In this document: piece after piece, positions 1,153 to 60,603 of the stretch
How the letters are laid out: each line of letters starts with the position of its first letter
How positions within the stretch are numbered: the first letter of the stretch is position 1
Source of the DNA: Babesia bigemina
Lineage: Eukaryota
DNA length: 64,000 nt
Direction of reading: 5' to 3'
Assembly (NCBI RefSeq): GCF_000981445.1
Contig: NC_027218.1
Span: forward strand, 2,542,001-2,606,000
Notes under the pieces: generated by a model
Database searches by the model: none
The model's input: the letters and a program-made list of their open reading frames with translations, nothing else
Told to the model about the DNA's origin: nothing
Position numbers and translations under genes: made by a program

Positions 1153-1719
1153 ATGTCGGGGGGGAGGACGTACAGGCCAGGTGATGCTTGTACGGAGTGT
1201 AATATTGGATGTCAAAAATCAGTAGTATGTAATTGCTGTCCCTGGTGTTGCGAGAAATGTAAGACTAGCAATTGCTATGAATGTTGGTTTGATCACTATA
1301 AGCGCACTAATGGCCTGGAGTCTTACAAGTGCGAAACATGGAAATGTGAGAAACAATGTAAAGGCAAAGAAAAGACATGTCAATGTACATGTTGTCAACA
1401 GAAATGTAGAAATCAACAAGTTGACTCCTGCAAAGCCCCCGCTCCACGCTCTCTCTCTGGTTCCTCCGATTCTCAGCTTCAAGCCGCCAGTCAAGCGCAG
1501 TTGTCCGATCCTCCCACTGAAGAAAGTCTCACTGGTGTCCCTGGTACAGAAGCCTCCACACCTTTTTCCCCTGATCCCCAAGTCATCGCCGCCGTCGTCG
1601 TTGCCCTCATCGTCGCCATCATCCTGCTCGACCTGTGCATCTTCCGCTTTCCGGTGGGCCGCAACATCCGCGATTTCCTCGTCCGCAAGATACCCTTCTG
1701 CATCGCGTTCTACAGCTGA
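1153..1719 (+). CDS. Small Cys-rich single-TM protein, copy A (188 aa)
   Basis: 20 Cys in the first 93 aa, S/P/T/Q linker, TM helix IAAVVVALIVAIILLDLCIF, tail RFPVGRNIRDFLVRKIPFCIAFYS. Paralogue of 7508-8065. Confidence 0.8.
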   Translation: MSGGRTYRPGDACTECNIGCQKSVVCNCCPWCCEKCKTSNCYECWFDHYKRTNGLESYKCETWKCEKQCKGKEKTCQCTCCQQKCRNQQVDSCKAPAPRSLSGSSDSQLQAASQAQLSDPPTEESLTGVPGTEASTPFSPDPQVIAAVVVALIVAIILLDLCIFRFPVGRNIRDFLVRKIPFCIAFYS

Positions 1720-2303
1720 TCTCAGCAATGTGTTAGCGCAATTTTCGTAATCCACATCCCACAGATCACCTAACTGGCAACTGACATCTAATGTTATAGA
1801 CAGTAATGATTGCGTTGATGATCAATCAAATGAGCAGCGAGGTGACCTAGCAACTGACCAAAGTGCTGACTTAGTAGCTGACATGGTGACTGCGCTATCT
1901 TCTGAACACTCATACAAAAAACTGCAAAACCTTTACATTTCATCGCTAAATCCTCCTGGTTAACGCCCATCTCCAATCATGCTCCACCTTCTCACTCCAG
2001 CAGGGCTGGCTTGGCTTGTCGCCTCCCCTCCTCAGGTGAGTGGTATGTCTATAGGATTCTTGTTATGGTTGATGGATTTTGCAATATGGTTTAGGTGTGT
2101 CATTGTCTTAGTATGATGCGTATTGTTTTCACTGTCTTACTTCATAGCCTTTCCACCCAGTCCACTTAGTTGTCTGCCATGCTGTATTAAGAGGAGTCAC
2201 CTTAGAGGTGTGGTCGCTCTAGTGTTTCCCAGTTCACGTGGTCCTGGAGACTGAAAGTGGCGGTTTGTAAGAGTGGATTAGAGGGTGATTGGCTGTGAAA
2301 AAG

Positions 2304-6143: not shown

Positions 6144-6407
6144 TTAAAGCTATATATGTGGGATGTTATTACCCTGTGATATATTGTGCTGCAGTGTTTA
6201 TTATGGGTATAGGGGTGTGATCCGTATTGCCATGATGTCCAGCAAAACTATGATGCTGGGATAGCATCCTCGTACGGCCAATAGTCACCTAGCGCGCCGT
6301 GTGCACCAACGTTTAGAGCAGCTGTGGTAGTTAGTAGAAGTCATTAGATTAACGTGGAATGTCACATGACTACACGAAGACTACGTGAGCTGCGTGAGGC
6401 TATGAGA

Positions 6408-7145: not shown

Positions 7146-7397
7146 TTAACCAACAAGACGCCATCTCAGCGAATTTCCATTATCTAAAAACTTGATAGGT
7201 TGGTGAGGCTGTGGTATCGTAGAGGGATGGGCGATGCGTGAGGCGCAAAATTTGCATCCGTTCTCAAAATCATTATTGCAAGCACCATCCTCCGTCTGTC
7301 TACGAAGCATAAGCTACAAACCGTCATTCATCATGAAAAGGACGGCGACGGCGGCGATGATGTAAGGGGCGGGGGTTATGTCTACCTCGCTGCTCAT
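7146..7397 (-). pseudogene. MSSEV-type micro-TM ORF with premature TAG
   Basis: Reads MSSEVDITPAPYIIAAVAVLFMMNDGL*LMLRRQTEDGACNNDFENGCKFCASR...; the TAG at 7314-7316 aligns with TGG (Trp) in the 53135-53336 copy. Confidence 0.55.
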
Positions 7398-7507
7398 TTG
7401 ATTGATCATCAACGCAATCATTACTGTCTATAACATTAGATGTCAGTTGCCAGTTAGGTGATCTGTGGGATGTGGATTACGAAAATTGCGCTAACAAATT
7501 GCTGGTA

Positions 7508-8065
7508 TTAGCTGTAGAACGCGATGCAGAAGGGCATCTTGCGTACGAGGAAATCGCGAATGTTGCGGCCCACCGGAAAGCGGAAGATGCACAGGTCGAG
7601 CAGGATGATGGCGACGATGATGGCAACGATGACGGCGGCGATGGCTTGGGGGTCTGGGCGGAAAGGTGTGGAGGCTTTTGCATTAGGGTCTCCGGTTGAA
7701 GGCTGTTCACCGTGGAGAGCGTTGGTAACACCGGGGAGAGGGACGACACCGGAGGGAGCAGAAGACTCTGCACCGGTGGAAGGAAGAGAGACGGAGGCAG
7801 CAACTTCTGCACGTGTACGTTTTTCAAGACAACAGTTACATCCACAAATGTAAATGTCGCTACACGTTTTTCTTTGGGAGGCACATCCCCTGGGATGGCA
7901 ATAACTGCTGCCTTGGTGATTTCGGAAATGCATTAAACATCCGTAGCATAGGCCACCCTTACATTTTGTGCAACACCAGCGACAGCAATTACAAAACTGA
8001 AACGTTTTACATCCATAAACACACTCTCCGCATGAAGTACCGTACCTGTACGTCCTCCCTCCCAT
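7508..8065 (-). CDS. Small Cys-rich single-TM protein, copy B
   Basis: ATG at 8065 (MGGRTY). First 11 Cys spaced as in copy A; near-identical TM and tail. Confidence 0.8.
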   Translation of the reverse strand: MGGRTYRYGTSCGECVYGCKTFQFCNCCRWCCTKCKGGLCYGCLMHFRNHQGSSYCHPRGCASQRKTCSDIYICGCNCCLEKRTRAEVAASVSLPSTGAESSAPSGVVPLPGVTNALHGEQPSTGDPNAKASTPFRPDPQAIAAVIVAIIVAIILLDLCIFRFPVGRNIRDFLVRKMPFCIAFYS

Positions 8066-8089
8066 CTTACCCTTCCCCTCCCACTCCAC

Positions 8090-8345
8090 TCAAACAGCAA
8101 GCATATCAATAACCTAAGCAACGCACTCACCTACTAAAACACGTACCACTGCCGCGCCCAGTCCCCTCAGCCTGCAAACATGTCAATCACCTAGCAACGC
8201 ACTCACCAACTGCAACACGTACCACTGCCGCTCCCAGTCCCCTCAACCTGCGAACATATAAATCACTTAAGCAACGCACTCACCAACCACTCATGAACAC
8301 GCACCTAGCAACGCACTCACCAACCACTCATGAACACGCACGTCA
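8090..8345 (-). repeat. Tandem ~76 bp intron/exon-like units in the leader of Cys-rich gene B
   Basis: On the minus strand, gtgagtgcgttgct...tgcag (35-36 nt, GT-AG) alternates with a 41-nt G-rich unit; there is also a ~35-37 bp direct duplication at ~8270-8341. Confidence 0.75.
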
Positions 8346-9046
8346 GCAAGGACACTGACCATCTACCATCGGCGCCACGGTAGCAGCCAGATGATGACCA
8401 TCCAGTGCACCGCCACTCACATCACAACTATGCAGCTATCACAACTGAAGTACAACCAAGATAAAGCATGTTGATACCATCCTGGCCGTGGCATGCAGGT
8501 CAACCTGTGCCAGTGGAGCAGTCACTCCAACCATCACAGACCGTTCAACGTTGGCAGTGCCTAGGACTGCTGTAACATTTCTGTCATAATGAGTGCCTAA
8601 GTGAACCACATTACTTAGTTATCGTGTTTCTCATTTGCACTATTACCATCAATGTCACAACCTCGCCGTCCATTGGCCATCACGTCACAGTCCCGGTGAC
8701 ACTGAATAGAGGCGCACGCGATGATACCATGTCAACCACTCATAACATACGATATAAGTGACTTAATGTGGTCCTATTCAGTGGCCTACGTTGATGACCA
8801 ATCACCCAGTTTTACAGCACTGGCCACGTGAGATGCCGTAGACATCTCTCACAGGTAACTCACAACTCAGCTTACCGGACTCAGTCATATTTCAAGTGGA
8901 CTGCACTAGCCAGGCTATGCCTGGAAGCAGTCAGGCTTTTCTCACATCACGGTGCCATAGATTCTGCGGTAACACAACTAACCACTAGTGCTGTAATGCG
9001 ATCCATCACAAGGCAAGTAATGACTAGATGAATGAGGTAATGATCA

Positions 9047-12000
9047 TTAAATAACAAGTTGACCAATAGGGTCCTCGTCGAAGTAGTCGACGTCTTTGTA
9101 AAGTGATAACATCTTCCGTCCTTTAGTGAGTAAGGCCTTGACGTCGATGTGGTGGGAAGCCTTGGTGCGAATAAGGTGTGATCGGATGTGGAGCACGTCC
9201 AGGCGGTACAGCATCGTGTTGGCGAAGATGAGTAATGCTGTGGACCACAGTGCGACGAGAGTGAAGATGAACGGCTCCCGGATGTTGTAGAGGAAATCGT
9301 CCATGGCAGTCATGAGTGATGCGATAGGCTTGCCGGTGATCACATCCTTAAGCTCACAAATGACATCTGAACATGTGAGTGACACCTGCGATCCCACCTC
9401 CGGCGGCGTGAACCCGTGAGTGTAGAGGAGGGGCAGGACATCTGGGCATGAGTGGAGGGATGAACACTTGATACTAACGTGCTTCTTGAGCTCGTAGTGC
9501 AATTTTTCAAGTGACTCCAACAGTCTGTCCGGCAGGTACACCGTCCAGCTGAGGTAGGTGTGGGCGAAGGCATGAGAGTACAGGGCGTAGGCCCGGTAGG
9601 TGATGGGCGAGCAGTGTGGAGGGCAGTTCTTATGGTCATCGCTGCATCCAAGCAGCATGGACAGGGTACGGGGATGTTCCTTGTCGTGGTTGTGGTTGTG
9701 GTTGTTTTTGGATATGACGTTGAGAGACTCGGAACCACGGATGCCCTTGACAGCTTGAAGGTCAGAGTTCTTGAGATGGTCCCAGTCGGGGCAGTCGGCA
9801 TGTGACCTGGTGAGAGATGATCCCAGTGACAACAATTCATTTGAATACACATCATGAAGTGAATTACCGAAATGATGGAAGAACGACACAAGCTCCCCTG
9901 TCGTACGCGGTGTCCTCTTGGTGAGGCAGACAAGATATCTGCATAGCTTCTCGAGTGGGTCGTGATTCTGATAACACGCCCCAGTCAAAAAGTTGTAGAT
10001 GTAAAATCCGTGCTTCGAATCATTACGAAAATTCTTTGCGACGAAACCCATTTTAATGCGGCTCCTTCGGCATACATCATTCCTCTGATACCAGTAGGTG
10101 GAGAGATCTGACTGGTCAGTGAGAAAACCTTGCAGCGGGGATGGATTACAGCCGTGACCTTGTAATTTCATGGGGTCTAATGGATCTTCGGTGCACTGCC
10201 GCGAATAAGATGCCTTTACATTTTTACCGTACTGGCAGTCACGCCATCCACCCTGGTGGGACTCCCTCCGGCACTGAGTGCGCAAAAACGATAACTGATG
10301 ATAAGTGGCGTAGACGTAGCTCAGCAATTGGCATAGAAGCGTGTAGGGGTCTTCAGAGTAGTACATCAGTGGAGCGCCGTAGCGTTCATAATGCAACTTG
10401 TTAAGGTCAATGGGCACAGGCTCTTGGATACCTGCCAGCACGGAGCTCGCGTGGCCACAGGTCTCGGACAAAGCTTCGGTGACATCCTCCGATGAAATAG
10501 ATTCTGGGGAAACATCTATTGATTCAGAACCCTCAAACGAATTCGCAAGGTGATTGATTAAATCGGCATATCCCAGGGCATGCGGCAAATCGCTGATCCA
10601 GCACAGCATCTCACGAAGAGTTCGGGGCGGCGGTATACTGTGATCAGTGCTAGGAACCTTTTTTGTGACCAACTCTGGGGAATACAGCTGACATATCGGT
10701 TCATCAATCATTACCCCTGGATGAGCTTCGATTTCTACCGGAGTGAGGGATTTCCGCGGAGGCTTTGTCTTGGGATCAGCAATGGGATCGCCTGTTGGTT
10801 CCGACGGCACAAAGGTCTCGAAAGCACTGTCTTGTGGAATGTAGACTGTTGGGATATGACTTGGTGTCTGTACAATTGGGGTGCCGAAAAAGTCGGTTGA
10901 ATTTTCCATGGGTAGGACGTCAAGCTGCCCAGTGAGAGGAGGGATGACCTCCGGGAGTATCACGGGCGTACGTTCCGTGGTACGTTTCTGTTTTGTCAGA
11001 TCAATGCCTTCAGGCTCAGAAGCAATGGCAGGAACGGAGAGTGGGTACGGCAGCGGCGGTAAGGGCGATATTTGCTTGGCCTCTTTTAATGGTTTGCCGG
11101 CCGGAATGCCAATGGCGGGGAGTAACGGAAGGGGCTTAGGTGGAATATTTGGAATGGGAATTATATCACCAGTGACTGCAAAGTCGTTTGAACGAATATA
11201 TTTCTGTGCCTCCTGCATTCTCTTCAACTCAGAGTTAGCATTATTTTTCACAACTCTACCTACCATGTCTGCAGGTTGTGGGAATTCGATTTTATCACCT
11301 GACACGAACACGGCACCTTCATCCAAACGCTTAGCCGATTGCGTAATATCTCTTTGAATACCTGTAAGCATGTCACTTTTCTGCATCTCTTGCCATTGTG
11401 CCTGCGCAGATATCTCTTTCTGCAATATATGGTCAGATTCCTCCGGAATCTCTTCGCCGCTTAATTCGAAGGCCAATGAATCGTCAAAACCGTGTAGCAC
11501 CTCTCCTTGAACGTCTAATGCCGCCAGTGGGTAACCACCTGCCATCAACGGCTTCTTAATATCGTCCTTATCTACACTCACAGCTTTTGTGATTTCTACG
11601 GAAATAGGTGGAGATGGGCGAGAGATGTCGACATTACCAACACGCATGTGACTTCTACTGTACAAACGATCCCTTATCGTACTCATTTTATTGTGTGATG
11701 CATTCATATTTTGTATGTCATTGAAAGACTGTAGCTTTAGATCAGGGGCTACGCTGACTGTGATCCCCGTTAACGCATCGAGATCATATGGAGGAAATTG
11801 TTGTGACTTAGGTTTAATAATGTTGCCACCAAGAACCGGTGTGGGTACATCAATCGCATCCACCTGTACGTCACCGCTTCTCAATGGATCGATGGGGTGA
11901 TGTTGAGGACCAGGGTGGCGACTGTTAGAATGAGCTGGTAGTACGGCATTAGGATTGTCAGGCCTTGTTTGGCGTCTGGGAGGATGCGGCATTTGTGAAT

Positions 12001-14359
12001 TTTGTTTTTGTATATTTCTCTCTACAGTCTTTTGAATGTCTTCATCACGCAATTTTTCGTTGACTTTGTCCCATACGGGGTCGGTTGTTTTAGGGTCATT
12101 AAAGTCATACTTCGGTACGCAGTACTCGGGGCCATCAGGCCATAGACTCATAAGTGACTTGCCTTCAGGGCACTTTTTCTGAATCTGAGAATTACCAGCC
12201 CCCTGATCCTTCCCTGCCGTCCCCGGTGAACTTACAGCTCCGCCAACCCCGCCGCCGCCACCTGAACCAGCACCCGAACCAGTGGTTGTCGTAGTAGTAG
12301 CGGTGGTGGGAGCTTGCGGTGTACCTCGACCATTTTGTTGAGTGGTGCTAGAACTAGGCCCCGTACCACCACTGGAACCGGGGACACCACCGTTACCAGC
12401 ACCGGGAGCAGAGGCACCAGGTGTACCAGACCTCTCAGGTTGAACACTTGAAAGCTGAGTGGTAAGATTCTGTGGAGAGGTAGCAGGCTGTTGAGTTTTA
12501 AGACCACCGCCCTGCGTATCATTACCCCGCCCATTACCACCCGGTTGAACAGCTCCAGGAAGACCATGGCCACTACCGGTGCTAGGGACACCACCCGGAG
12601 CAGGGACAACAGATGACTGAGGGCGTGAACTTGTATCACTGGGAGTCTGAGGTTTCGGAGCTGGAGAGGCGGCAGCCTTTTGACCCGGAGCACCACCGCC
12701 ATTTGAACTCCCACTCCCGCCACCTGACTGACCAGGGGAGCCAGTGCCTGCAGGATGACCGGTGGGAGAGGCTGGAGATGGATGCACTGGTTGCGGTGAA
12801 GAAGGCTGTTGCGGTGACACTGTATTTTTTAGTGTAGATGTTGTAGACGTGGTACTATCAGGCCCTTTATTTCCTCTCCCACCTTGAGGCCCTGCCGGCC
12901 CTGGAGCTCCTGCACTACCGATAGGCGGAGATGGAGAAGTTGTGGTAGTTGATGAAGTTGGAGGCTTTCCTCCACTTTGACCTCTATTTTGATTTTGAGA
13001 TGCATTATTACTGCTTTTTGGGTTCTGCTGTCCATTCCCTGTAGTGCCTTGATTTGGAGCTCCGTTGGCTTTTTTACCCTGAGGTGACTTAGCTTTTGTT
13101 GTAGTGGATTTAGTTTCAGTTGGAGGCGACGATTTATTCTCCGGTATAACTTGTTTGGGGGAGTTGGGGAGCTTGGCAGACGGAACCGCTGGTTCTGGTG
13201 GAGGCCTCACTGGGCACGAAACTCTATACTCACCTTCCAAAATTTTTTTAAGTTTGGCCAAACCATCACCCTCTTTCTTAAGCTCACCAATGACAGTGTT
13301 CCAATCGTTTTTCAAAGTTTCCACATCCTTGCTCTGAGCTGTGTAACGATGATCGCTAAAAAACGTGAATCCGTAGGGGAAAAGATTGTGGGTGAAATAT
13401 CCCCCCAGATCCCCGTAATACGGTTTAATTCCCTCCAAGGTTCTCTTCACGTTGTCGAGATTTATCCGAAACCAATTTGCCGTTTCTTTTGCAAATATCG
13501 CTTCGTTAAGCTTTCTAGATTCTGGCGACTGTCCGGTGTGGTCAAAGCGTTTCTTGGTGAACATCCTCCCAAATTGTCTTTGAAGATGTGCGCAATGCTT
13601 TATTAAGTCCTGCCAACATATAGGTTTGCCGGGTGATTCTACATTGTTTCTAAAACTTTCATCTTTTTGTTTTACAATCCCGCAAAACGTCCCCACCAAT
13701 GCAACGGCGTTACCAGCGTTAACCTTATGTATGCCAGCAGTGGACAACGTAGAAGTGACAAAGATATCGCTGAAAAAATTGTGCATGTTGCGATATTTGT
13801 TCAAAATGTTCTCAAGGCCCACAGCCATGTTATAACCCTGGTAGTAACCACTGGCTTTGTTGTATTTTATGTCTCCATACGCGAAGCCTCCGGGCATCAT
13901 ACCGCCGTATTTTGTTTCGTTGGATTGTGCTTGGAGATACTTGTCAAGATCACCGCCATAGTCACCCGCCCAAGACGCCGATCCACCAGGCCAGTCGTGT
14001 TTCCACCCGCCGCCGCCGAGTTTATCGAAAGTCGGATTTACGCAGTACCATAGATAATACATAGCGGCGAGGAATTTGGGGAGACATTCCAACAGAGTGT
14101 TGACAATGTCATTGGGGTTTTGGTTGCGATATTTGCCCGCGTCCGGATTGTAGCATAATCTCGTATAAAAAGCCGACACGTTATTGAGAAAGTGATTTAA
14201 TGACTGTTTTATGTCATGTTCTGTGTTTTTACCCTTATAATAATTCTTAATACGCCCGTGCAGCACAGTTGCCACCTGGGCCCGCATATTAGCATCCTGC
14301 CTCAACCACTCCAGGAACTGGAGACACTCCTTAAGAGTGTTCAGTTGTATATTCGCCAT
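9047..14359 (-). CDS. Large ves/VESA-like variant surface protein (1770 aa)
   Basis: LNTLKECLQFLEWL start; P/S/G-rich middle; RTPRTTGELVSFFH; CSPITYRAYALY; C-terminal TM and HIRSHLIR...LLTKGRKMLSLY tail typical of Babesia ves-family proteins. Confidence 0.85.
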   Translation of the reverse strand: MANIQLNTLKECLQFLEWLRQDANMRAQVATVLHGRIKNYYKGKNTEHDIKQSLNHFLNNVSAFYTRLCYNPDAGKYRNQNPNDIVNTLLECLPKFLAAMYYLWYCVNPTFDKLGGGGWKHDWPGGSASWAGDYGGDLDKYLQAQSNETKYGGMMPGGFAYGDIKYNKASGYYQGYNMAVGLENILNKYRNMHNFFSDIFVTSTLSTAGIHKVNAGNAVALVGTFCGIVKQKDESFRNNVESPGKPICWQDLIKHCAHLQRQFGRMFTKKRFDHTGQSPESRKLNEAIFAKETANWFRINLDNVKRTLEGIKPYYGDLGGYFTHNLFPYGFTFFSDHRYTAQSKDVETLKNDWNTVIGELKKEGDGLAKLKKILEGEYRVSCPVRPPPEPAVPSAKLPNSPKQVIPENKSSPPTETKSTTTKAKSPQGKKANGAPNQGTTGNGQQNPKSSNNASQNQNRGQSGGKPPTSSTTTTSPSPPIGSAGAPGPAGPQGGRGNKGPDSTTSTTSTLKNTVSPQQPSSPQPVHPSPASPTGHPAGTGSPGQSGGGSGSSNGGGAPGQKAAASPAPKPQTPSDTSSRPQSSVVPAPGGVPSTGSGHGLPGAVQPGGNGRGNDTQGGGLKTQQPATSPQNLTTQLSSVQPERSGTPGASAPGAGNGGVPGSSGGTGPSSSTTQQNGRGTPQAPTTATTTTTTGSGAGSGGGGGVGGAVSSPGTAGKDQGAGNSQIQKKCPEGKSLMSLWPDGPEYCVPKYDFNDPKTTDPVWDKVNEKLRDEDIQKTVERNIQKQNSQMPHPPRRQTRPDNPNAVLPAHSNSRHPGPQHHPIDPLRSGDVQVDAIDVPTPVLGGNIIKPKSQQFPPYDLDALTGITVSVAPDLKLQSFNDIQNMNASHNKMSTIRDRLYSRSHMRVGNVDISRPSPPISVEITKAVSVDKDDIKKPLMAGGYPLAALDVQGEVLHGFDDSLAFELSGEEIPEESDHILQKEISAQAQWQEMQKSDMLTGIQRDITQSAKRLDEGAVFVSGDKIEFPQPADMVGRVVKNNANSELKRMQEAQKYIRSNDFAVTGDIIPIPNIPPKPLPLLPAIGIPAGKPLKEAKQISPLPPLPYPLSVPAIASEPEGIDLTKQKRTTERTPVILPEVIPPLTGQLDVLPMENSTDFFGTPIVQTPSHIPTVYIPQDSAFETFVPSEPTGDPIADPKTKPPRKSLTPVEIEAHPGVMIDEPICQLYSPELVTKKVPSTDHSIPPPRTLREMLCWISDLPHALGYADLINHLANSFEGSESIDVSPESISSEDVTEALSETCGHASSVLAGIQEPVPIDLNKLHYERYGAPLMYYSEDPYTLLCQLLSYVYATYHQLSFLRTQCRRESHQGGWRDCQYGKNVKASYSRQCTEDPLDPMKLQGHGCNPSPLQGFLTDQSDLSTYWYQRNDVCRRSRIKMGFVAKNFRNDSKHGFYIYNFLTGACYQNHDPLEKLCRYLVCLTKRTPRTTGELVSFFHHFGNSLHDVYSNELLSLGSSLTRSHADCPDWDHLKNSDLQAVKGIRGSESLNVISKNNHNHNHDKEHPRTLSMLLGCSDDHKNCPPHCSPITYRAYALYSHAFAHTYLSWTVYLPDRLLESLEKLHYELKKHVSIKCSSLHSCPDVLPLLYTHGFTPPEVGSQVSLTCSDVICELKDVITGKPIASLMTAMDDFLYNIREPFIFTLVALWSTALLIFANTMLYRLDVLHIRSHLIRTKASHHIDVKALLTKGRKMLSLYKDVDYFDEDPIGQLVI

Positions 14360-51316: not shown

Positions 51317-51437
51317 GTTGCCGGCCATACTGCGTCGAAAATACCGGATCCCATCCGAACTCCGAAGTCAAGCGGCGCTAGGCCGGGTTAGTACTGGGGT
51401 GGGGGACCGCCCGGGAACCCCTTTCGGTGCCGGCAAC
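51317..51437 (+). rRNA. 5S rRNA
   Basis: 121 nt; terminal helix GTTGCCGG/CCGGCAAC, GGCCATAC, CCGGATCCCATCCGAACTCCGAAGTCAAGC, TTAGTACT, GGGGACC..CCGGGAA. Confidence 0.96.
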
Positions 51438-52373
51438 CTATTTAATCTATCATTTTACAAATGTTAAATAAGATTCTATTGCTATTATATGTGGAATAGG
51501 CTTATGCAAAACACTATGTAAATGTGGTATCAGCCACGAAACAAAGGAGGAGGTGCTCCCATATATGCGAGGGTACACGATGAGGGTGGTGGACTGGGTG
51601 CACTGTGGGGGATGGACTGACGAGTTATTGTCTTAGCATTAAACGCCGTTAATGACTATCATATTTACAGATATTCTGCCTTAAAACTTCATACCACCTA
51701 TATACGCACGCGGATGGAAGATACGCAGTTAAATTTGGTAAGGAGGGCACGATGGAAAAAACGTCAGAGCCCAAGTATGACCCAAAACAAATGGTTATAA
51801 AATATATATAACGTAAAACAGACGTCTAATGTGCTTTGGAAGGAACGTAAGTGCCCGAACTGGATTTCAACGCATCCTCACTATACCTGGCAAGCGGGAT
51901 TTTCAGCCTGTAGACAGAAGCACAAACCGTGACTGTGCAGGACACAAACATGCAACCGACGTCATTTTAAAACAAATGTTCAAGGTGAAAAGACGGTTGC
52001 AACTGAACTCACGTGGCTACTAACTGGACGGAAAAGCTGTATACAGAATACACCCAGGGCATTCTCAATTACGTTTTCATACCATATATAGTGGCGGATG
52101 TGCCCATTTTGTTAATTGTAGGGCATTCGTATTCGATGATATGAAACGTATTGACGTATGCTTACACAGGCTAAGGAAGCTCTGTTTACAGGATGTTGTC
52201 GTGGGTGGGTTTTGGAGCGCAGACATAGTGGCGCTGGATGCGTATTAAAGAACGTTGTGGCATGTTTTTCGCCATGCGACGCAGAAACATACATACAGTT
52301 GGACACTATTATATTGACATGGCAAGTGGCATTACTACAGAATTCTATTTGCACTGCGTGCCGCTAGAAGAGA

Positions 52374-52547
52374 TTATTGGAGTTTAGGCTTGGAATCACG
52401 GAACCCGTCACGTATTTGGCCGAATATTTCTCCGAGGCTTACGTTGTATATTTTACCCATGATGTAAAGGACCAAGAGAAAGACGGAGATGCCTAAAGCA
52501 AGGCCACCAATAACGGAGCCAACAGCGGCTTTCGCGTTATCATCCAT
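52374..52547 (-). CDS. Small single-TM protein (57 aa; below the ORF-track cutoff)
   Basis: MDDNAKAAVGSVIGGLALGISVFLLVLYIMGKIYNVSLGEIFGQIRDGFRDSKPKLQ*; clear paralogue of 6408-6620. Confidence 0.72.
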   Translation of the reverse strand: MDDNAKAAVGSVIGGLALGISVFLLVLYIMGKIYNVSLGEIFGQIRDGFRDSKPKLQ

Positions 52548-53134
52548 ATTTCTCTAACTTACATTACAGTCAACCATCCACAGTTGTTAACAACTTACCT
52601 CAATTCTTTAAAGCTCTTGACCAACTGAAGATACAGAATGCCCATACCCCCACCCCTATCTTGCCATCCGCCATTTGCTGGGGCAAACATAAATCCGGAT
52701 ATCCCAACGCTGACATGTTATGAACATACCCTCCCGCATGCATCAGTAAGACATTCCGATTGTGATGTAACGACGCTGCAACTAACGATACAGTGTCTAC
52801 GAGAAGCGCCAAGTCTGCCGGACATCTGCTTTGTTCAACCCTGGTTATTCCGATGTGACCAGCTCCCCTGAATTCCTAGTTTGTTGTTTCTTATCAGTAC
52901 AATGCAGCCACTTAGCACGCCACTATACAGCACCTCTCACTCACATGTCACTTGCTAACCTTAAAGATGGTCCAGCACGTCACATGGTGCATCACCCGTC
53001 AGGTGACGGTCTGGATTACCACCCGATAAGTTCCACTTTTTTCTTGAGATGAGATCACCAACACCAACATATTAATCAGCACTACGCCATCCCAGCAAAT
53101 CTCCGTTCCCTAACATCTTGCCGGTTAGGAGACG

Positions 53135-53336
53135 CTATACTAGAGTAGAGGGATAGGCGGTGCGTGAGGCGCAGGTTTTGCATCCGTTCTCAAACTCCTT
53201 ATTGCAAGCACCATCGTCTGCGTGTTTACGATGCATAAGCCACAAGCCATCAATCAATATGAAAATGATGGCGATGATGAGGGCGACGGCGGCGATGGCT
53301 TGGGGGGACGGGTGTTACGTTCACTGCACTGCTCAT
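53135..53336 (-). pseudogene. MSSAV-type micro-TM ORF with a +1 frameshift in a C6 run
   Basis: Removing one C gives MSSAVNVTPVPQAIAAVALIIAIIFILIDGLWLMHRKHADDGACNKEFENGCKTCASRTAYPSTLV*; homologous to 7146-7397. Confidence 0.55.
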
Positions 53337-53446
53337 GTGATTGCTCATCAACGCGATCATTACTGTCTAGACATTCAATGCCAGTTGCCAGTTAGGTGAT
53401 CGGTGGAATTTGGATTAACAATTTCTGCGCTAACAAATTGCTGAGA

Positions 53447-53614
53447 TCAGCTGTAGAACGCGATGCAGAACGGTATCTTGCGTACGAGGAAATCGCGGAT
53501 GTTGCGGCCCACCGGGAAGCGGAAGATGCACAGGTCGAGCAGGATGATGGCGACGATGATGGCAACGATGACGGCGGCGATGGCGGAGGGGGAAGTAGTT
53601 ACTTCACTGCTCAT
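53447..53614 (-). CDS. MSSEV micro-ORF consisting only of the TM and tail of the Cys-rich family (55 aa)
   Basis: MSSEVTTSPSAIAAVIVAIIVAIILLDLCIFRFPVGRNIRDFLVRKIPFCIAFYS; alternative ATG at 53626. Could instead be an alternative last exon. Confidence 0.6.
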   Translation of the reverse strand: MSSEVTTSPSAIAAVIVAIIVAIILLDLCIFRFPVGRNIRDFLVRKIPFCIAFYS

Positions 53615-53684
53615 GTAATTGATCATCAACGCGATGATTACTGTCTACAACATTAGATGTCAGTGGCCAGTCAGGTTTTTGTGA

Positions 53685-54164
53685 CTAGCTGCGCAGTAGA
53701 TACCGCACCCTGTGGAACGGCCTGATGCGGAAGTAGCTCATGACGCAGATGACTATGATGATGAGGACGACGGCGGCGATGATGATGGCAACTGTGAGAT
53801 TTGAAGACTTGGAGGGATTCGTGGTGTGAGCAGTACCGGGTCCGCCGGTGGAACGTGTTACGGTAGTAGAAGAGGAGACACGCTGTAGACTAGAAGAATA
53901 GTCGGAATCGGGGGTAAGGGACGTAGACCATCGACCGGTAGCTCTATGATAATAGAGGGGAGGGCGTTTCTTATCACAACAATAACACATACATGTCTTG
54001 GTATTACAACCATCACATTCCGAAGGATGGCAACTTTGCATTCCACTGCTGCGCTGCCAGTAGGTAGCGTTACATACAGAACACCTTGTACATTTTCCAC
54101 AGCATATGTAGCAACATCTACAATTATTTCCTGCACATTGTTTGCCACAGCTACACTTCGTCAT
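53685..54164 (-). CDS. Small Cys-rich single-TM protein, copy C (159 aa, different anchor)
   Basis: CxCCxxCCxxC core and CHP..C...TC.C.CC as in copy B; S/T linker; TM VAIIIAAVVLIIIVICVM; basic tail RIRPFHRVRYLLRS. Confidence 0.8.
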   Translation of the reverse strand: MTKCSCGKQCAGNNCRCCYICCGKCTRCSVCNATYWQRSSGMQSCHPSECDGCNTKTCMCYCCDKKRPPLYYHRATGRWSTSLTPDSDYSSSLQRVSSSTTVTRSTGGPGTAHTTNPSKSSNLTVAIIIAAVVLIIIVICVMSYFRIRPFHRVRYLLRS

Positions 54165-54184
54165 CTTCCCCTCCCAGTCCCACT

Positions 54185-54505
54185 CCCCTCAACCTGCAAA
54201 CATCAATCACTCAAGCAGCACCCACCAACTGCAACACGTGCCACTGCCGCGCCCAGTCCCCTCAACCTGCAAACATATCAATCACTTAACCAACGCACTC
54301 ACCAACTGCAACACGTACCACTGCCGCTCCCAGTCTCCTCAGCCTGCAAGCATATCAATCACCTATGCAAGCACTCACCAACTGCAACACTACCACTGCC
54401 GCTCCCAGTCCCCTCAGCCTGCAGACATATCAATCACTCAAGCAAGCACTCACCTAACTACTACAGGAACACGCAACTGAGCAAGCCACTCACCAACCTC
54501 TCATT
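54185..54505 (-). repeat. About four tandem ~75 bp intron/exon-like units in the leader of Cys-rich gene C
   Basis: Repeated gcactcaccaactgcaacacgtaccactgccgctcccagtcccctcaacctgcaaacatatcaatcac on the + strand. Confidence 0.85.
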
Positions 54506-55224
54506 AACACGCAATGCAGCAAGGACACTGGCCATCTACTATCGGCGCCACGGTAGCAGAAAGGCGACCGCCGTCTAAAGCAGGGTCAGTCACATCACAA
54601 CTATGCAGCTATCACAACTGAAGTACAACCAAGATAAAGCATGTTGATACCATCATGGCCGTGGCATGCAGGTCAACCGGTAGCAGTTGCGCAGTCGACT
54701 CTATCCATCACAGACCGTACAACGGTGCCACCGTCGCTTATGAATCTCATCACATTTGTGTCTTTATGATTGAATAAGTGAGGCACATTCCTTGGTAAAT
54801 CCGTTTATCATTTACGCCGTTACCATCAATGCCACCTAACTACGCCATCCACTGGCCATCACGTCACAATCCCCGTGACACTGAATAGAGACGCACGCGA
54901 TAATACCACGTCAACCACTTATACCATACGATAGAAGTCACCTAATGTTGTCGTATTCAGTCGCCTACGTTGACGACCAATCACCCAGTTTTACAGCACT
55001 GGCCAGGTGAGATGCCGTAGACATCTCTCACAGGTAACTCACAACTCGGCTTACCGGATTCAGTCATCTCTTAAGTAGGCTACATGGTTCTGGTTATGCC
55101 TGGAAGTAGTAACGTTTTTTCACACCATGGTGCTGTAGGTGCTGTGGTGACACAACTAACTACTAGTGCTGTAGTGCGATCTATCACATTGCAATTAATG
55201 ACTACATTAATGCGATAACTACTA

Positions 55225-58200
55225 TTAGAAACCAAGTTGGACAATAGGGTCCTCGTCGAAGTAGTCGACGTCTTTGTAGAGTGAGAGCATCTTCCGGCCT
55301 TTCGTGAGTAAGGCCTTGACATCCATGCGGTGAGAAGCCTTGGAGCGGATAAGGTGTGATCGGATGTGAAGCACGTCCAGGCGGTATAGCATTGTGTTGG
55401 CACAGATGAGTAATGCGAGAGACCAGAGTGCCACGAGGGTGAAGATGAATGGCTCCCGGATACCGTAGAGGAAATTGTCCATGGCAGTCATGAGTGATGC
55501 GATAGGCCCACCGTTGACAATTTCCTGCAACTTTTCGATGACATCTGAGCACTTGAGTTGTTGCTGCGATCCCACCTCCGGCGGCGTGAACCCGTGTAGG
55601 TAGAGGAGGGGCAGGGCATCGGGGCATAAGTGGAGGTATGAACACTTGATACTAACATGCTTCTTGAGAGCATAGTGCAGTTTTTGAAGTGACTCCCGCA
55701 GTCTGTCTGGTAAGTACACCGTCCAGCTGAGGTAGGTGTGGGCGAAGCGCTGGGAGTACAGGGCGTACGCCCGGTACGTGATGGGTGAGCAGTGTGGATG
55801 GCAGTTGTCAGGGTCACTGCCGCAGCCGACCAGTGTGGACAGGGTACGGGGATGGTCTTTGTCGTGGTTGTGATTGGAGATGGAGTTGAGAGACTCTGTA
55901 CCCCGGATGCCACGGACAGCTTGGAGGCCGATGCGATCAATATGATCCCAGTCAGGGCAGTCGAGATGTGGAGTGGAGAGGGATGAGCCCAGTGGAAGCA
56001 ATGACTTTGAAAACGCATCATGCATCTCATTCCCGAAATTGTGGAAGTACGATACGAGCTCCCCGGTGGTGCGTGGCGTCCGCCTGGTGAGGCAGATGAG
56101 GTAGGAGGACAGCGTCAGCAAGGGGTCCTCACCGCCGCAGCTGGGAGTGATGATGGAGGAAATGACACTGCCCTGTTGCGATGTCTTAGGCAAATCCCCT
56201 CTCTGAAATCCCATCCTGACCCTGCTCTTGAGGCACAGGTTGCACGGGTCGAAGAGGTGCGTCTTGAAGGTGGAGTCGTAGGCGTCGGTAAGAAAGGCCT
56301 GGAGGGGAGATGGCTTCTTGGGATCACTGCCATAGTTACAATTCTGCCAACCACCACTTAGTTTGTCCCTCTCACACTGCGACTTCAGGAACTCCAACTG
56401 GTGGTGGCAGGCGTAGGCGTAGTCACGCAGCTGGCAGAGGAGGCAGGCTGGGTCGGGGGAATAGTAATAAGCATATTTATCTTGATCTTTAAAAAATGTT
56501 TCATAAGCGTCAGAAGAGCCTTTATATCGAATCCTGAAAAGTACGTGTGCTGCGTAGAGACATGCCTCTGTCAGTTTATCGGCGACATGGGAAGCGTCCA
56601 GAGTGTAAGGTTCAAGGGTGACGTCGATGGCATCATTTTTAAAACGCTTCAAAAAACTGTAAACATGTTCTCTAATGATGCCAATATATCCATATGTATT
56701 CAAGCCGACAAACCAGTAGAGCATCTCTCGGACGGTTCTGGGCGGAGGCAGATGGTCGGACTCTGGGGGACGGGAGGCAGGTGGTGAGGTGGGAGAAGTG
56801 GAGGAAGGGGTAACATACCAAGGGTTTTGGCAGGTTTGTGTATTTAAATCATCCGGAGATTGGTCGGGGAATACGGCCATTGGAATATTAATGTCTGAGC
56901 GGTCTGCATCTCCCATAGAAAAATCATCCAGGCCGTCACGTGTGTGGTCGGCCTGTACTTTAATCATGGGAATGTTTTCAGGGTCATAATCATGAAGAGG
57001 CTGAGAAGGCGCGGTATTAAGTGTTTCGATAAATAAATCAACAGTTTCTTCTGCATCAGTGTGCGTTACTTTTGAGATCTCCAAACCATCATCAATAACT
57101 TCGTAGGCTGGATTCACGCCAATTAGCACGGATTTTACGTCATCCATGTGCTGGAAACTTTTGTCATCATCGTCTTCATCTGTGGGTCTTGTCGGCTTGG
57201 TGATATCAAATAACACTGGAGACGCAGCTGAATTATATTCATCCTGACTAATGTTGGGGGGGTTGATGTCATAGGACCGTGGAATATAGGCTCTAATAAT
57301 GTCTAATGTGGGCAACTGTTTTGGATCTGGGACATTAACCAACTTGTTAGACCCATCCGGGATACTGTAGATGTTCTTCGAGTCAACAGCTCTAATATCG
57401 ATGATAGGTGGAGGGTATGTATTAAAACCGTGAACTGCACGTTGTATAATGTTCTCAGGAGCACATATCTTAGTATTGAAAGGAATTTTTACAACTTCTC
57501 CAAGGGTATCATCCTGGAGATTTTTACGCATTTCTTCCGTTTCCTCTTCTTTTCGCAATACATCGTCCATGTTTTCGCTCCATAATGTATCCTGATGTTG
57601 CCGCTTTGCTCCGGCTTCTAACGCCTTTTTAAGTTCTAGATCCTCAGCTTTTTGCTTTTCGTATAATTTCTGGTGGACATCCTGGATCTCTGCAATATGT
57701 TGCTGTTTAAACACATCAGAGTCACTTGTTATTGGTTCCCCTCCAACACCGAGCACAACTGGTTCATCTTCATCAGAGGCGACTGCACCACCAAGACCGA
57801 ACTCAGTTGGATCATGAAGAACGACCAACGGTGCGTCTTTAGAGTTATCTGTGTCACTCGTCGGAGGCTTAGTGATCTCAATCGATAGATTTGGCGGAAC
57901 AGATTTCATGTTTTTCTGTAAAACCTTACGATATGCCTCCTCCAAGTTTTCAGATATTTTTTGCGGTCCGTATATCACATCAATCTCTGGAGGAGGAAAC
58001 GAATGTATTTGAGGACTTCTTGGTGAATTTATAACAGTTTGTGCATCAGTTGCAGCAAACGTTTGTCCCTGACCACCTCCACCGCCACCCGAACCAGCGG
58101 AAGTCGTAGTAGTAGCGGCTGTAGAAGTATGCGATGTACTTTGATCATTCTGTTGAGTGGTGCCAGAAGTGGTCGCCTGGTCACTCGTTCCCTGACTACC

Positions 58201-60603
58201 ACCGGGAGCAGGGGCACTGGATGACGGAGGTGTTGGAGGGTGAACACCTGGAGACTGAGGTGAAGCAGGGGATTGAACAGCTGTAGTCGGAGGTTGTCCA
58301 GGAGGTGCAGAGATACCAGGCTGCGTACCTGCATTACCACCGCCATTTGCACCCTGCCCCTTAGCACCTGGTTTACCAGGCACAGAAGCAGACCCCTGAC
58401 CACCACCGGTACCAGAGGCACCAGTTGACTGAGTGACTTGGCTCGTGCCACTTGGAGCCTGACGTTGTCCAGGAGGTGAAGTGACAACAGTCTGTTGAGT
58501 TGTAAGAGTACCGCCCGGTGAACCCTTACCCTTACCACCTTTTGGATCAGCGTCAGTAGAAGACCCCTGACCCGGAACAGAGGCACCAGATGACGCAGCA
58601 CCTGAACGTTGAACACCAGGAGCCTGAGATTGGACAGATGATGAAGCGGAATCAGGCTGTTGACCTTTATGATCACCGCCCTGTGAACCCTGATCCTGTC
58701 CACCTTGTGTACCAAACCCAGATGAATCCGCCGGCCCACTCTTGCCCTGACCCTGACCCGGAGAAGAGGCATTAGATGACGGAGAGCGTGGGGGTGAAAC
58801 ACTTGGCAACTGATGTTGTCCAGGCTGTGAAGATCCACCAGACTTTTGACCCGGACCACCACCGCCATCTGAACCCTTACTCGTAACACCTGGCTTACTA
58901 GGGGAGCCAGGGGCCGCAGGAGCACTGGGGAGAGAGGCTTGAGGGGGAGACGATGATTGTTGAGATGAAGTCTTTTGAGATGTAACAGTACTTTTAGGTG
59001 TAGATGTTGTAGACGTGGTACTACCGGGCCCTTTCTGGCCTTTCCCACCTTGAGTTCCTGTCGGCCCTGACGCTCCTGCACTGCCTGAAGACAGAGATGA
59101 AGAAGATGTTTCAACTGATGAAGTTGTAGGCTTCCCGTCGCTTCGACCACTATTTTGATTCCGAGACGTTCCCTCTTGGTTTACCACCGGCTTGGTCGCT
59201 TCAGTCTTGGTGGCCACAGGTTTCGCAGCTTCAGTTTTAGTGGCAACCGGCTTCGCCGCCTCGGCTTTGGTGACCACAGGCCTGGCGGTCTGTGGAGTTT
59301 TGGCAGCACTTTTCGGCGCAGACTTTACGCCTCCCTCAACAGATGGAGTTACTACATTAGGTTTCGTTGCCTTCGTCTTCGTGACCGCAGGACAATCGTC
59401 TCCATTCAAAAGTTTAATTAGCTTTTTTAGTCCACCGCTTGCCTCATCGTCTTTACTAAGCATCTCTATCACTTCACGCCACCTTTGCAGCAGAGCTTTT
59501 GAATTATTACCATTCCATAGGTGGTGGTTGGCTTCAAACACGAAGCCGTAGGGGAAAAGATTGTTGGTGAAATATGCTCCGAGATTGCGGCTATTTGGTG
59601 CGTTGACGGCGGCGTCTTTCGTGTTAATGCGCTCCAATTTGCTTCGCACCGTCCCGAGATTTTCTCTCAACCAATTCGCTGTTGTTTCTGCAAACTTTTC
59701 CGCATTAATGTGCTTAGGGTTTATGGACTGACCGGTGTGATCAAAGAAGCGCCTGGTGAACAATTTGTCAATTTTTCCTCTAAGCGCGGTGCAATGTTTT
59801 TTTAATTCGGGCCAATTGATGCATGTCTCTGGTTTTTGCACAACTTTTATTAATTTAGAACCATCAGAGTCATTTTCAACAACCTGACAAAACGCTTTCA
59901 CCAATGCAAGTACATTAGCAGTGTTCGCCTTATGGTTTCCGGAAGCAGGAACAACTGATGTTGCGAAGATATCACGGAAAAGATTGTACTTACTAGAATT
60001 TTTGTCCAAAAGGGATTTAAGATCCAAAGCCATATGCAAACCCTGGTAGTAGCCGGTGTAATATTCAGCGTATTTCACTTCGTTTTCACCGAAGCCTCCG
60101 GGTATAGTCCCGCCGTAATCATTGGGGTTTGTAGATCTGAGATATTTTTGCAAGTCGCCACCATAGTGACCCGTATACCAATGCTTCTCATACCCAGGAT
60201 AATCATTCTTCCACCCTCCGCCACCAAGATTATCGAAAGTCGCATTAACATCGTACCAAAGATAGTACATCGCGGCAAGGAATTTGGGAATACACTCGAG
60301 GAGAGCGTCAACTACTTGATCAACATTGGGGTCACGGGGCATTGAGTTATTGTTGCTATGTAACTGCGTAGGAACGTGCGCTTTTACTAATCTTTTGTAA
60401 AAGTGATCCGTGGTGGTCATAAAAGTAGACAATGAGGACTTAATTTTACGGTAGTCTAGATCCTTATAATATGGTTTAAGACGCTCATGAAGTTTGTTGG
60501 CTACCTGGTCAAGTTTACGCTTCCCCTCCCTCTCATACAACCAGTTCAGGAAAATCAAACATTCCTTAAGGCTGGTAAGTTTGATTCCAACAGCAGAGGC
60601 CAT
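55225..60603 (-). CDS. Large ves/VESA-like variant surface protein (~1790 aa)
   Basis: LTSLKECLIFLNWL start (ATG 60603), G/S/Q/P-rich middle, conserved C-terminal block, TM and HIRSHLIR...LLTKGRKMLSLYKDVDYFDEDP tail nearly identical to 9047-14359. Confidence 0.85.
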   Translation of the reverse strand: MASAVGIKLTSLKECLIFLNWLYEREGKRKLDQVANKLHERLKPYYKDLDYRKIKSSLSTFMTTTDHFYKRLVKAHVPTQLHSNNNSMPRDPNVDQVVDALLECIPKFLAAMYYLWYDVNATFDNLGGGGWKNDYPGYEKHWYTGHYGGDLQKYLRSTNPNDYGGTIPGGFGENEVKYAEYYTGYYQGLHMALDLKSLLDKNSSKYNLFRDIFATSVVPASGNHKANTANVLALVKAFCQVVENDSDGSKLIKVVQKPETCINWPELKKHCTALRGKIDKLFTRRFFDHTGQSINPKHINAEKFAETTANWLRENLGTVRSKLERINTKDAAVNAPNSRNLGAYFTNNLFPYGFVFEANHHLWNGNNSKALLQRWREVIEMLSKDDEASGGLKKLIKLLNGDDCPAVTKTKATKPNVVTPSVEGGVKSAPKSAAKTPQTARPVVTKAEAAKPVATKTEAAKPVATKTEATKPVVNQEGTSRNQNSGRSDGKPTTSSVETSSSSLSSGSAGASGPTGTQGGKGQKGPGSTTSTTSTPKSTVTSQKTSSQQSSSPPQASLPSAPAAPGSPSKPGVTSKGSDGGGGPGQKSGGSSQPGQHQLPSVSPPRSPSSNASSPGQGQGKSGPADSSGFGTQGGQDQGSQGGDHKGQQPDSASSSVQSQAPGVQRSGAASSGASVPGQGSSTDADPKGGKGKGSPGGTLTTQQTVVTSPPGQRQAPSGTSQVTQSTGASGTGGGQGSASVPGKPGAKGQGANGGGNAGTQPGISAPPGQPPTTAVQSPASPQSPGVHPPTPPSSSAPAPGGSQGTSDQATTSGTTQQNDQSTSHTSTAATTTTSAGSGGGGGGQGQTFAATDAQTVINSPRSPQIHSFPPPEIDVIYGPQKISENLEEAYRKVLQKNMKSVPPNLSIEITKPPTSDTDNSKDAPLVVLHDPTEFGLGGAVASDEDEPVVLGVGGEPITSDSDVFKQQHIAEIQDVHQKLYEKQKAEDLELKKALEAGAKRQHQDTLWSENMDDVLRKEEETEEMRKNLQDDTLGEVVKIPFNTKICAPENIIQRAVHGFNTYPPPIIDIRAVDSKNIYSIPDGSNKLVNVPDPKQLPTLDIIRAYIPRSYDINPPNISQDEYNSAASPVLFDITKPTRPTDEDDDDKSFQHMDDVKSVLIGVNPAYEVIDDGLEISKVTHTDAEETVDLFIETLNTAPSQPLHDYDPENIPMIKVQADHTRDGLDDFSMGDADRSDINIPMAVFPDQSPDDLNTQTCQNPWYVTPSSTSPTSPPASRPPESDHLPPPRTVREMLYWFVGLNTYGYIGIIREHVYSFLKRFKNDAIDVTLEPYTLDASHVADKLTEACLYAAHVLFRIRYKGSSDAYETFFKDQDKYAYYYSPDPACLLCQLRDYAYACHHQLEFLKSQCERDKLSGGWQNCNYGSDPKKPSPLQAFLTDAYDSTFKTHLFDPCNLCLKSRVRMGFQRGDLPKTSQQGSVISSIITPSCGGEDPLLTLSSYLICLTRRTPRTTGELVSYFHNFGNEMHDAFSKSLLPLGSSLSTPHLDCPDWDHIDRIGLQAVRGIRGTESLNSISNHNHDKDHPRTLSTLVGCGSDPDNCHPHCSPITYRAYALYSQRFAHTYLSWTVYLPDRLRESLQKLHYALKKHVSIKCSYLHLCPDALPLLYLHGFTPPEVGSQQQLKCSDVIEKLQEIVNGGPIASLMTAMDNFLYGIREPFIFTLVALWSLALLICANTMLYRLDVLHIRSHLIRSKASHRMDVKALLTKGRKMLSLYKDVDYFDEDPIVQLGF
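59180..59290 (-). repeat. 30-bp coding tandem repeat (TK[A/T]EA[A/T]KPV[A/V] x3)
   Basis: TKAEAAKPVA TKTEAAKPVA TKTEATKPVV in the translation. Confidence 0.8.

What the first reader, a model, noticed from the sequence alone, without database searches (positions are those of the whole stretch)
53135..53685. Train of closely spaced 'MSS(E/A)V' micro-TM modules after the Cys-rich gene: polycistron or interchangeable anchor exons
Seen: 70 nt after gene C's stop, a 55-aa ORF supplies exactly the anchor used by genes A and B; 110 nt later a second TM module follows. Each module is preceded by the same leader (…ctgacatctaatgtt(a/g)tagacagtaat(c/g)at(c/t)gcgttgatgatcaat..catgagcag). That leader contains branch-point-like CTGAC/CTAAT and closely spaced AG acceptors. 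The same leader follows gene B (7397-7450) and gene A (1780-1850, where the ORF stops at MSSEVT*). The spacing looks too short for separate promoters. Inference: either alternative last exons that swap the TM/tail on one Cys-rich head, or micro-proteins made from a shared transcript.
Basis: partly seen in the sequence, partly recalled or inferred. Interest (0 to 1): 0.78.

Follow-up and report, generated by a model that had tools for sequence, protein, structure and literature searches.

The report
Spare membrane-anchor cassettes in Babesia
In the cattle parasite Babesia bigemina, genes of an unnamed family of small cysteine-rich membrane proteins are trailed by short tandem copies of their own membrane anchor; only one of the four copies in this stretch is intact, and the anchors are likely swapped between genes by DNA recombination rather than by splicing.

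Summary
The repeat is real: four copies of one leader plus ATG-AGC-AG (none in shuffles). But only module 1 (53614-53447, 55 aa) is intact. Module 2's TM is out of frame with its ATG, B's copy stops at 27 aa, A's at 6 aa. Genes A, B and C belong to an unnamed family found only in Babesia bigemina (about 59 records): variable Cys-rich head, Pro/Ser stalk, and one of two near-invariant TM/tail classes, lying beside ves1-type genes. Locus B is collinear with locus C except that B's head joins directly to the module-1-type anchor, and several database members have chimeric anchors, so anchor exchange is best explained at DNA level. Exon swapping is poorly supported: the one donor site that family gene models use lies after C's own TM and would add a second TM, not replace it. 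Module 1 has nine intact relatives and looks conserved as protein, so a headless micro-protein remains open. No RNA data were available. The family itself, unnamed in the papers searched, is the more interesting result.

The parts
53685..54164 (-). Gene C: Cys-rich head, Ser/Thr stalk, TM and short tail of class C (159 aa)
54178..54493 (-). 75-76-nt tandem repeat upstream of gene C; each unit holds a 33-36-nt GT..AG intron-like element (likely 5' UTR introns, untested)
53615..53684 (-). Leader 1 (70 nt), with branch-point-like motifs, AG at 53645 and an in-frame ATG at 53626
53645..53708 (-). Candidate 64-nt in-frame GT-AG intron that would remove gene C's stop and join module 1 as a second TM (prediction only)
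53447..53614 (-). Module 1: intact 55-aa ORF, MSSEV + class-A TM + invariant tail
53337..53446 (-). Spacer and leader 2 (110 nt), about 86% identical to the spacers after genes A and B
53135..53336 (-). Module 2, broken: ATG frame gives 28 hydrophilic aa (53336-53250); TM-like frame 53314-53135 has no start; the frames part near the C-run at about 53309-53300
7508..8065 (-). Gene B: Cys-rich head joined directly to the class-A TM and tail (185 aa)
7314..7397 (-). Module after gene B, broken: shortened TM, stop after 27 aa; paralogue of module 2
1153..1719 (+). Gene A: Cys-rich head with class-A TM and tail (188 aa)
1830..1850 (+). Module after gene A, truncated: 6 codons; similarity to B and C ends here
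55225..60603 (-). ves1-type gene directly upstream of gene C (1792 aa; ves1b-like by inference)
   Evidence: degenerate form of the ves1 motif quoted in PMC6630957; no Pfam hit
9047..14359 (-). ves1-type gene directly upstream of gene B (1770 aa)
52374..52547 (-). Separate small TM ORF (57 aa) closing the cassette; paralogue at 6620-6408 (70 aa)

Best explanation
The train is a tandem array of anchor cassettes (leader, MSSEV, transmembrane segment, tail) behind genes of an unnamed Babesia bigemina family of Cys-rich single-TM proteins, and the cassettes likely act as DNA-level donors, so that recombination within the repetitive TM-coding sequence joins a head to a different anchor. Shown: two anchor classes on the same head scaffold; locus B equals locus C minus the 211 nt between the start of C's TM (53795) and the start of module 1's TM (53584); chimeric anchors in database members; 1 intact and 3 broken modules here. 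Inferred: unequal crossover and gene conversion build, shuffle and homogenise the train; downstream copies decay; module 1 is kept intact by conversion, selection or both. Inferred, untested: the full-length proteins are variant membrane antigens of the blood stage that travel in a cassette with ves1b-like genes.
For: B and C are collinear upstream (8072-9930 with 54244-56096, 82%) and downstream (6343-7645 with 52308-53584, 77.5%), and the downstream block begins at the first TM codon of B and of module 1. A and B are 93% identical over 313 nt from stalk end to MSSEV while their heads match at 178 of 268 aligned positions; their non-coding spacers (107 of 110) are as alike as their coding anchors (127 of 132), as expected from conversion. 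Class A: 34 head-type and 10 module-type records; class C: 20 records (both counts include window genes, the two database models of A and B were dropped, 4 records carry both classes). Chimeras by inspection: P0005 (class-C-like start, class-A end), P0059 (class-C TM, class-A tail end), P0061 (class-A-like start, class-C body). P0064's tail aligns with the class-A tail (shuffle p 0.0095). The TM codes a 12-bp tandem repeat. A head gene with the class-A anchor is followed, by consecutive accession numbers on one contig, by two intact modules with the same tail (CDR71722-71724), where a swap at RNA level would change little. Module 2's downstream frame shows no constraint between B and C (pN/pS 0.82, one nonsense change). 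Module ATGs have a pyrimidine at -3 in 4 of 4 copies against a purine in 14 of 16 annotated genes and 3 of 3 family genes (the four are paralogues, not independent).
Against: Only three loci could be read as DNA; direction (deletion in B or insertion in C) is unknown and no recombination event was observed. Module 1 looks constrained as protein: 1-2 amino-acid against 3 silent changes versus A and B (pN/pS 0.11-0.22), and its anchor is better conserved than its spacer (4-5 of 132 against 15-16 of 109 differences, p 0.002-0.008), which a purely silent donor does not need. The MSSEV leader peptide is not part of head-type stalks (0 of 34) and 3 of its 4 differences among window copies are silent (rough p 0.01-0.03, post hoc). 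Two of the three other class-C tails tested against the class-A tail did not align better than shuffles (P0063 p 0.13, P0054 p 0.67). The chimeras and the tandem order rest on ab initio gene models, not DNA.
Confidence: 0.55

Rival explanations
1. Module 1 is a real micro-gene: a headless 55-65-aa single-TM protein with the family's invariant tail, made from its own short transcript (promoter inside gene C) or by re-initiation on gene C's mRNA; it would share the anchor's partners and act as decoy, spacer or oligomer partner. Compatible with DNA-level shuffling.
For: 10 module-type records with intact anchor, 5 of them stand-alone models of 61-68 aa; tail as conserved as in head genes (mean 0.1 against 0.24 differences in the last 29 aa); Met kept in 10 of 10 (partly by how they were picked) with a second in-frame Met four codons before in the 8 records that show that position; silent-change bias; initiator-like TCACAAA 70 nt before the ATG (motif from PMC4148916); short gaps occur between real genes here; charge pattern (0 basic residues before the TM, 5 after) gives the same predicted orientation as full-length members.
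Against: Weak start context. The initiator motif occurs 2.3 times per kb per strand and in only 1 of 4 leaders; no ATGGGG/CCCCAT within 300 nt of any module. No copy of the family's upstream region precedes the modules. 3 of 4 window modules are broken, and databases only record intact ones.
Confidence: 0.35
2. Optional splicing of a 64-nt intron (53708-53645) removes gene C's stop and fuses module 1 in frame, giving a two-TM isoform; intron retention gives the one-TM form (as in Toxoplasma myosin B/C or Plasmodium MAEBL, PMC6381282 passages).
For: Canonical GT and AG in frame, branch-point-like motifs, no stop between AG and ATG in 4 of 4 copies; 3 database models (P0011, P0012, P0017) use this junction and a fourth (P0048) a nearby one; weak module start context fits an internal exon; the family has intron-like units in its 5' region.
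Against: The models are ab initio predictions (PMC4066756 methods passage). The sequence that would be intron is conserved as a protein end: exactly VRYLLRS-stop in 10 of 16 unfused class-C records, YLLR-type in 13 of 16. A second TM would put the invariant basic tail on the opposite side of the membrane (inference from charges and hydropathy). It adds an anchor and swaps nothing, and it does not explain modules behind class-A genes. The donor is buried in a predicted hairpin (z -3.1 for this stretch, 1 of 4 stretches folded).
Confidence: 0.2
3. One reading: the modules are alternative last exons that replace the TM and tail on one head.
For: Acceptor-like leader repeated before each module; a consensus-like in-phase donor exists at 54077.
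Against: That donor lies at codon 30, inside the head; the other two donors before the TM are non-consensus. Modules behind A and B and module 2 cannot supply a TM plus tail. None of the 4 fused database models drops the first TM (P0048 starts within it).
Confidence: 0.05

Closest known systems
[quoted passage not shown]
   Same: No signal peptide, variable Cys/Lys-rich N-terminal region, low-complexity stalk, single C-terminal TM and short conserved tail; multigene family shuffled by gene conversion; sits at ves loci. B. bigemina VESA lacks a CKRD (PMC4066756, PMC6630957 passages).
   Different: One tenth the size; no detectable homology to the neighbouring ves1-type protein (hhalign probability 1%) or to any B. 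bovis protein; trailing anchor cassettes are not described for ves1 in the passages read.
smORF (B. bovis) and ves2 (B. bigemina): small satellite families beside ves1
   Same: Small, species-restricted, multicopy, next to ves1 loci (PMC4066756 passages).
   Different: Those have a signal peptide and no TM; this family has a TM and no clear signal peptide.
Giardia variant-specific surface proteins (VSP)
   Same: Works like: variable CxxC-rich N-terminal part on a near-invariant hydrophobic C-terminal segment (PMC3656445 passages); heads here have 5-7 CxxC in 95 aa.
   Different: No homology found, no CRGKA end, much smaller, tail 26 aa; surface location and switching untested.
Alternatively spliced anchors in Apicomplexa (MAEBL, myosin B/C)
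   Same: A short optional intron at the C-terminus could change the membrane anchor.
   Different: Those are shown by transcripts; here only predicted, and the product would gain a second TM.

Membership tests
VESA1 / ves1 | Homologous conserved C-terminal domain with TM | tested here: not met
   Profile of 14 members against the neighbouring ves1-type protein: probability 1%, 1 aligned column; no ves1-sized protein among 26 HMM hits
VESA1 / ves1 | P(K/R)TIREILYW-type motif and size near or above 100 kDa | tested here: not met
   Absent from the alignment; intact members about 130-200 aa; a degenerate motif is present in the neighbouring large ORFs
VESA1 / ves1 | No signal peptide, single C-terminal TM, short conserved tail | tested here: met
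   Hydropathy only: 15 of 18 heads have N-terminal 10-residue hydropathy under 1.6, 3 reach 1.8-2.4; no SignalP available
VESA1 / ves1 | Homology of the head to the B. bovis CKRD | tested here: inconclusive
   Composition similar (Cys 19-21%, Lys 5-16% of first 95 aa); no B. bovis hit; no direct comparison with a CKRD sequence was made; head model low confidence
VESA1 / ves1 | Display on the infected red-cell surface, with switching | not testable with these tools
   Needs localisation and clonal expression data
smORF | Signal peptide, no TM, B. bovis homology | tested here: not met
   TM present; hits only in B. bigemina
ves2 | Homology to ves1 N-terminus; no TM | tested here: not met
mtm / mfs / tpr-related | Eight or more TM segments | tested here: not met
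   One TM, two in the predicted fusion
Giardia VSP | Multiple CxxC on a conserved hydrophobic C-terminal segment | tested here: met
   (analogy)
Giardia VSP | CRGKA end or sequence homology to VSP motifs 1 and 2 | tested here: not met
Alternative last exon | Donor before the first TM and an intact downstream exon | tested here: inconclusive
   Intact exon only for module 1; no convincing donor in the stalk; not met for A, B and module 2
Alternative last exon | Junction reads | not testable with these tools
   No RNA holder listed

The most novel reading that the evidence does not exclude
B. bigemina, whose VESA proteins lack the Cys/Lys-rich domain, carries that kind of variable domain as a separate, so far unnamed family of about 55-60 mini-antigens that ride in a cassette with ves1b; their membrane anchors are exchanged from a downstream train of cassettes, and the intact cassettes are themselves translated as headless 55-65-aa anchor proteins that tune or decoy whatever binds the invariant tail.
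Probability: 0.2. Interest if true: 0.8.

Novelty: new variant of a known kind. Interest (0 to 1): 0.52.

Why it matters
B. bigemina antigenic variation is described through ves1a, ves1b and ves2. A further family of about 55-60 variable Cys-rich membrane proteins beside the ves1b-like genes, poorly annotated (the database models of genes A and B are mis-spliced, gene C and module 1 are not in the collection as such), would add an overlooked candidate variant antigen and a possible stand-in for the missing CKRD. Its invariant tail gives one antibody or primer target that tests the whole family and the micro-protein idea at once. The splicing or polycistron mechanism that gave the first score is not supported by anything seen here.

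Tried and rejected
No RNA holder listed for 52800-55300, so no read-level test; no whole genome held; a scan of metagenome contigs for the invariant tail found 0 loci. Published tables: 1 of 31 family records looked up is listed in the blood-versus-kinete table of PMC9806345; the table is filtered at 1 read per million and comes from another strain, so the 30 blanks, which include all module-type records, are uninformative. 0 of 9 chromosomal family ids covered by prefix searches are in the proteome table of PMC4066756 (unplaced-contig genes do not appear in it at all; supplementary file 1 could not be searched). 0 of 6 ids in the supplements of PMC9531838. Pfam: no significant family for A, B, C or module 1. 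Rfam: nothing at 52000-55300. Folding: full-length model pLDDT 56, no Foldseek match; head model pLDDT 59, single match Z 2.1, rmsd 3.4, 66 aligned (CBP TAZ2), not meaningful; ESM Atlas no usable hit. An attempt to derive real introns from six annotated genes of the window, to score the candidate splice sites, gave unstable parses and was dropped. A suspected degenerate second leader after A's MSSEVT was not significant (p 0.09). Leader RNA structure: z -3.1 for C's stretch but 0.1, -0.6 and -0.3 for the other three, so no shared structure. A sequencing error as cause of module 2's frameshift is unlikely but not excluded: the reference assembly was capillary-sequenced and Illumina-corrected. 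Earlier scan findings: none relevant. No complex prediction was run.

Full report
Setting. All named relatives of the genes in question are Babesia bigemina gene models; two of them (P0032, P0036) are mis-spliced models of genes B and A. The window holds three large ves1-type ORFs (55225-60603, 9047-14359, 2304-6143), recognised by a degenerate form of the ves1 motif quoted in PMC6630957 (passages); Pfam does not name them, and 'ves1b-like' is my inference.

Observation. The leader plus ATG occurs 4 times, against none in 100 shuffles. Gaps from the preceding stop are 70, 110, 110 and 110 nt. Module 1 is an intact 55-aa ORF whose last 44 residues differ from A and B at 2 and 1 positions. The other three are broken. 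Module 2's ATG frame gives 28 hydrophilic residues, its TM lies in another frame without a start, and no AG in its leader reaches the TM without a stop; the frame after its TM shows pN/pS 0.82 and a nonsense change against B's copy. B's copy has a shorter TM and ends at 27 aa; A's ends at 6 aa, exactly where similarity to B and C stops.

The family. Module 1 finds 4 short (of 26 candidates) and 36 longer (of 1,263) proteins; C's C-terminus finds 13 more (of 17); cluster look-ups add three. A profile of 14 members against 1.84 billion representatives gives 26 hits, all B. bigemina. In total 59 stored records carry one of the two tails (includes module 1 and the models of A and B, and some may be the same gene twice). 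Intact members have a head of about 95 aa with 19-21% Cys on a fixed scaffold (16 invariant Cys among 14 aligned heads and 1 in the anchor), a Pro/Ser stalk, one TM and a basic tail, and mostly no signal-peptide-like stretch. Class A anchors (34 head-type records) are nearly invariant (mean 0.68 differences in 44 aa); class C anchors (20 records) end in exactly VRYLLRS-stop in 10 of 16 unfused records. Of 40 chromosomal ids, 23 are on chromosome 3, where PMC4066756 (section 21) reports lineage-specific ves1b insertions; by gene number, members lie next to 156-209-kDa proteins in that paper's proteome table and near one named ves1b. One head-type member (BBBOND_0005760, P0047) has 29, 21 and 32 reads in blood stages and 0, 0, 0 in kinetes, listed only as 'protein of unknown function': the family is transcribed in blood, at least once.

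How the train likely works. Loci B and C are paralogous cassettes: ves1-type 3' end, upstream region, Cys gene, modules, small TM ORF. Alignment resumes downstream at the first TM codon of B and of module 1; C has 211 extra nt there (its own TM, tail, leader and MSSEV). One crossover between two TM-coding segments, which are built of a 12-bp repeat, converts one layout into the other. Stored models show anchors that begin in one class and end in the other (P0005, P0059, P0061), and P0064's tail is intermediate (p 0.0095; two other class-C tails tested were not significant). A and B share coding anchor and non-coding spacer at the same 96-97% identity while their heads match at about two thirds of positions, the mark of conversion. 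On one contig a class-A head gene is followed by two intact modules (consecutive accessions). These are sequence facts; recombination as their cause is inferred.

Is module 1 expressed? Unknown. For a micro-protein: 10 intact module-type records, tails as conserved as in head genes, pN/pS 0.11-0.22 against A and B, anchor better conserved than the adjoining spacer (p 0.002-0.008), 3 of 4 differences in MSSEV silent, and MSSEV absent from 34 of 34 head-type stalks. Against: pyrimidine at -3 in 4 of 4 module starts versus purine in 14 of 16 annotated genes, no copy of the family's upstream region, ascertainment towards intact copies, and conversion from functional genes could keep it intact. The gap argument cuts both ways: B. 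bovis median UTRs are 152 and 116 nt (PMC4148916 passages), yet annotated same-strand genes here lie 90 and 1 nt apart with very different read counts.

Splicing. A 64-nt GT-AG intron (53708-53645) would fuse module 1 in frame behind C's own TM; 3 database models use this junction, but the annotation was ab initio (PMC4066756 passage). It would add a TM, likely flip the invariant tail across the membrane, and discard a conserved protein end. A true swap needs a donor before C's TM; 3 of 9 in-phase GT sites lie there and none is convincing. I could not score the sites against real introns.

Comparison. It works like a variant antigen with a fixed anchor (VESA1, Giardia VSP) and sits like smORF or ves2, but fails membership in each. 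B. bigemina VESA lacks the CKRD; the head is CKRD-like in composition only, homology untested directly. Fold searches on low-confidence models gave nothing.

Literature. Seven searches found no paper naming the family or the modules; gene-id searches returned one table entry. The library lacks most subscription papers, and supplementary file 1 of PMC4066756 could not be searched, so this is not proof of absence. Seen: PMC4066756 (passages, section 21, rows of supplement 3, two legend passages of supplement 2); PMC9806345 (abstract, passages, rows of supplement 1); PMC4148916 (passages, section 6 part 1 of 2); PMC6630957, PMC10463595, PMC5660447, PMC6381282, PMC3656445, PMC9477259 (passages only); PMC9531838 (supplement search only).

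Verdict. Real repeat, mostly decayed; anchor exchange likely in DNA (0.55); module 1 possibly a micro-protein (0.35, compatible with the first); optional two-TM splice form 0.2; exon swap 0.05. Interest 0.52, carried mainly by the unnamed family.

Noticed in passing
window 54178-54493 (-), 8078-8361 (-), 1088-1123 (+): Upstream of genes C, B and A lie 4, 2 (plus one degenerate) and 1 copies of a 33-36-nt GT..AG intron-like element, in C and B as 75-76-nt tandem units: likely 5' UTR introns amplified in variable number. Database models translate these units in several frames, which explains the 'RGLGAAVVEG' starts of many mis-predicted members.
   Followed up: partly
window 52547-52374 (-) and 6620-6408 (-): A separate small TM ORF (57 and 70 aa) closes both cassettes; last 33 codons show pN/pS 0.23, good start context, and B's copy has a short Cys-rich N-terminus. 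Probably a second unannotated micro-gene family; no homologue search left.
   Followed up: partly
window 53708-53688 (-) and class-A tails: Both tail classes keep an Rx(x)L pattern about a dozen residues after the TM; class C reads VRYL, the same four letters listed as PEXEL-like motif for B. bovis mtm and SBP3 in PMC9477259. The pattern is common by chance and is missing in P0063 and P0064.
   Followed up: no
window 51317-51438 (+): 5S rRNA gene (Rfam RF00001, 108 bits) about 0.9 kb beyond the cassette.
   Followed up: yes
window 15921-18815 (-) and 62268-64000 (-): A 6-cys (s48/45) gene lies just upstream of both ves1-type genes, so the duplicated unit may run from the 6-cys gene to the small TM ORF.
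   Followed up: partly
window 2304-6143 (+) and 1-312 (+): Two ves1-type ORFs flanking gene A end before the C-terminal TM domain seen in the other two; the first abuts the end of B's cassette in opposite orientation, suggesting a rearrangement junction near 6140-6340.
   Followed up: no
window 39446-41659 and 41661-43892 (+): Two annotated housekeeping genes 1 nt apart on the same strand with very different blood-stage read counts: a promoter inside a coding sequence, or a mis-called start.
   Followed up: partly
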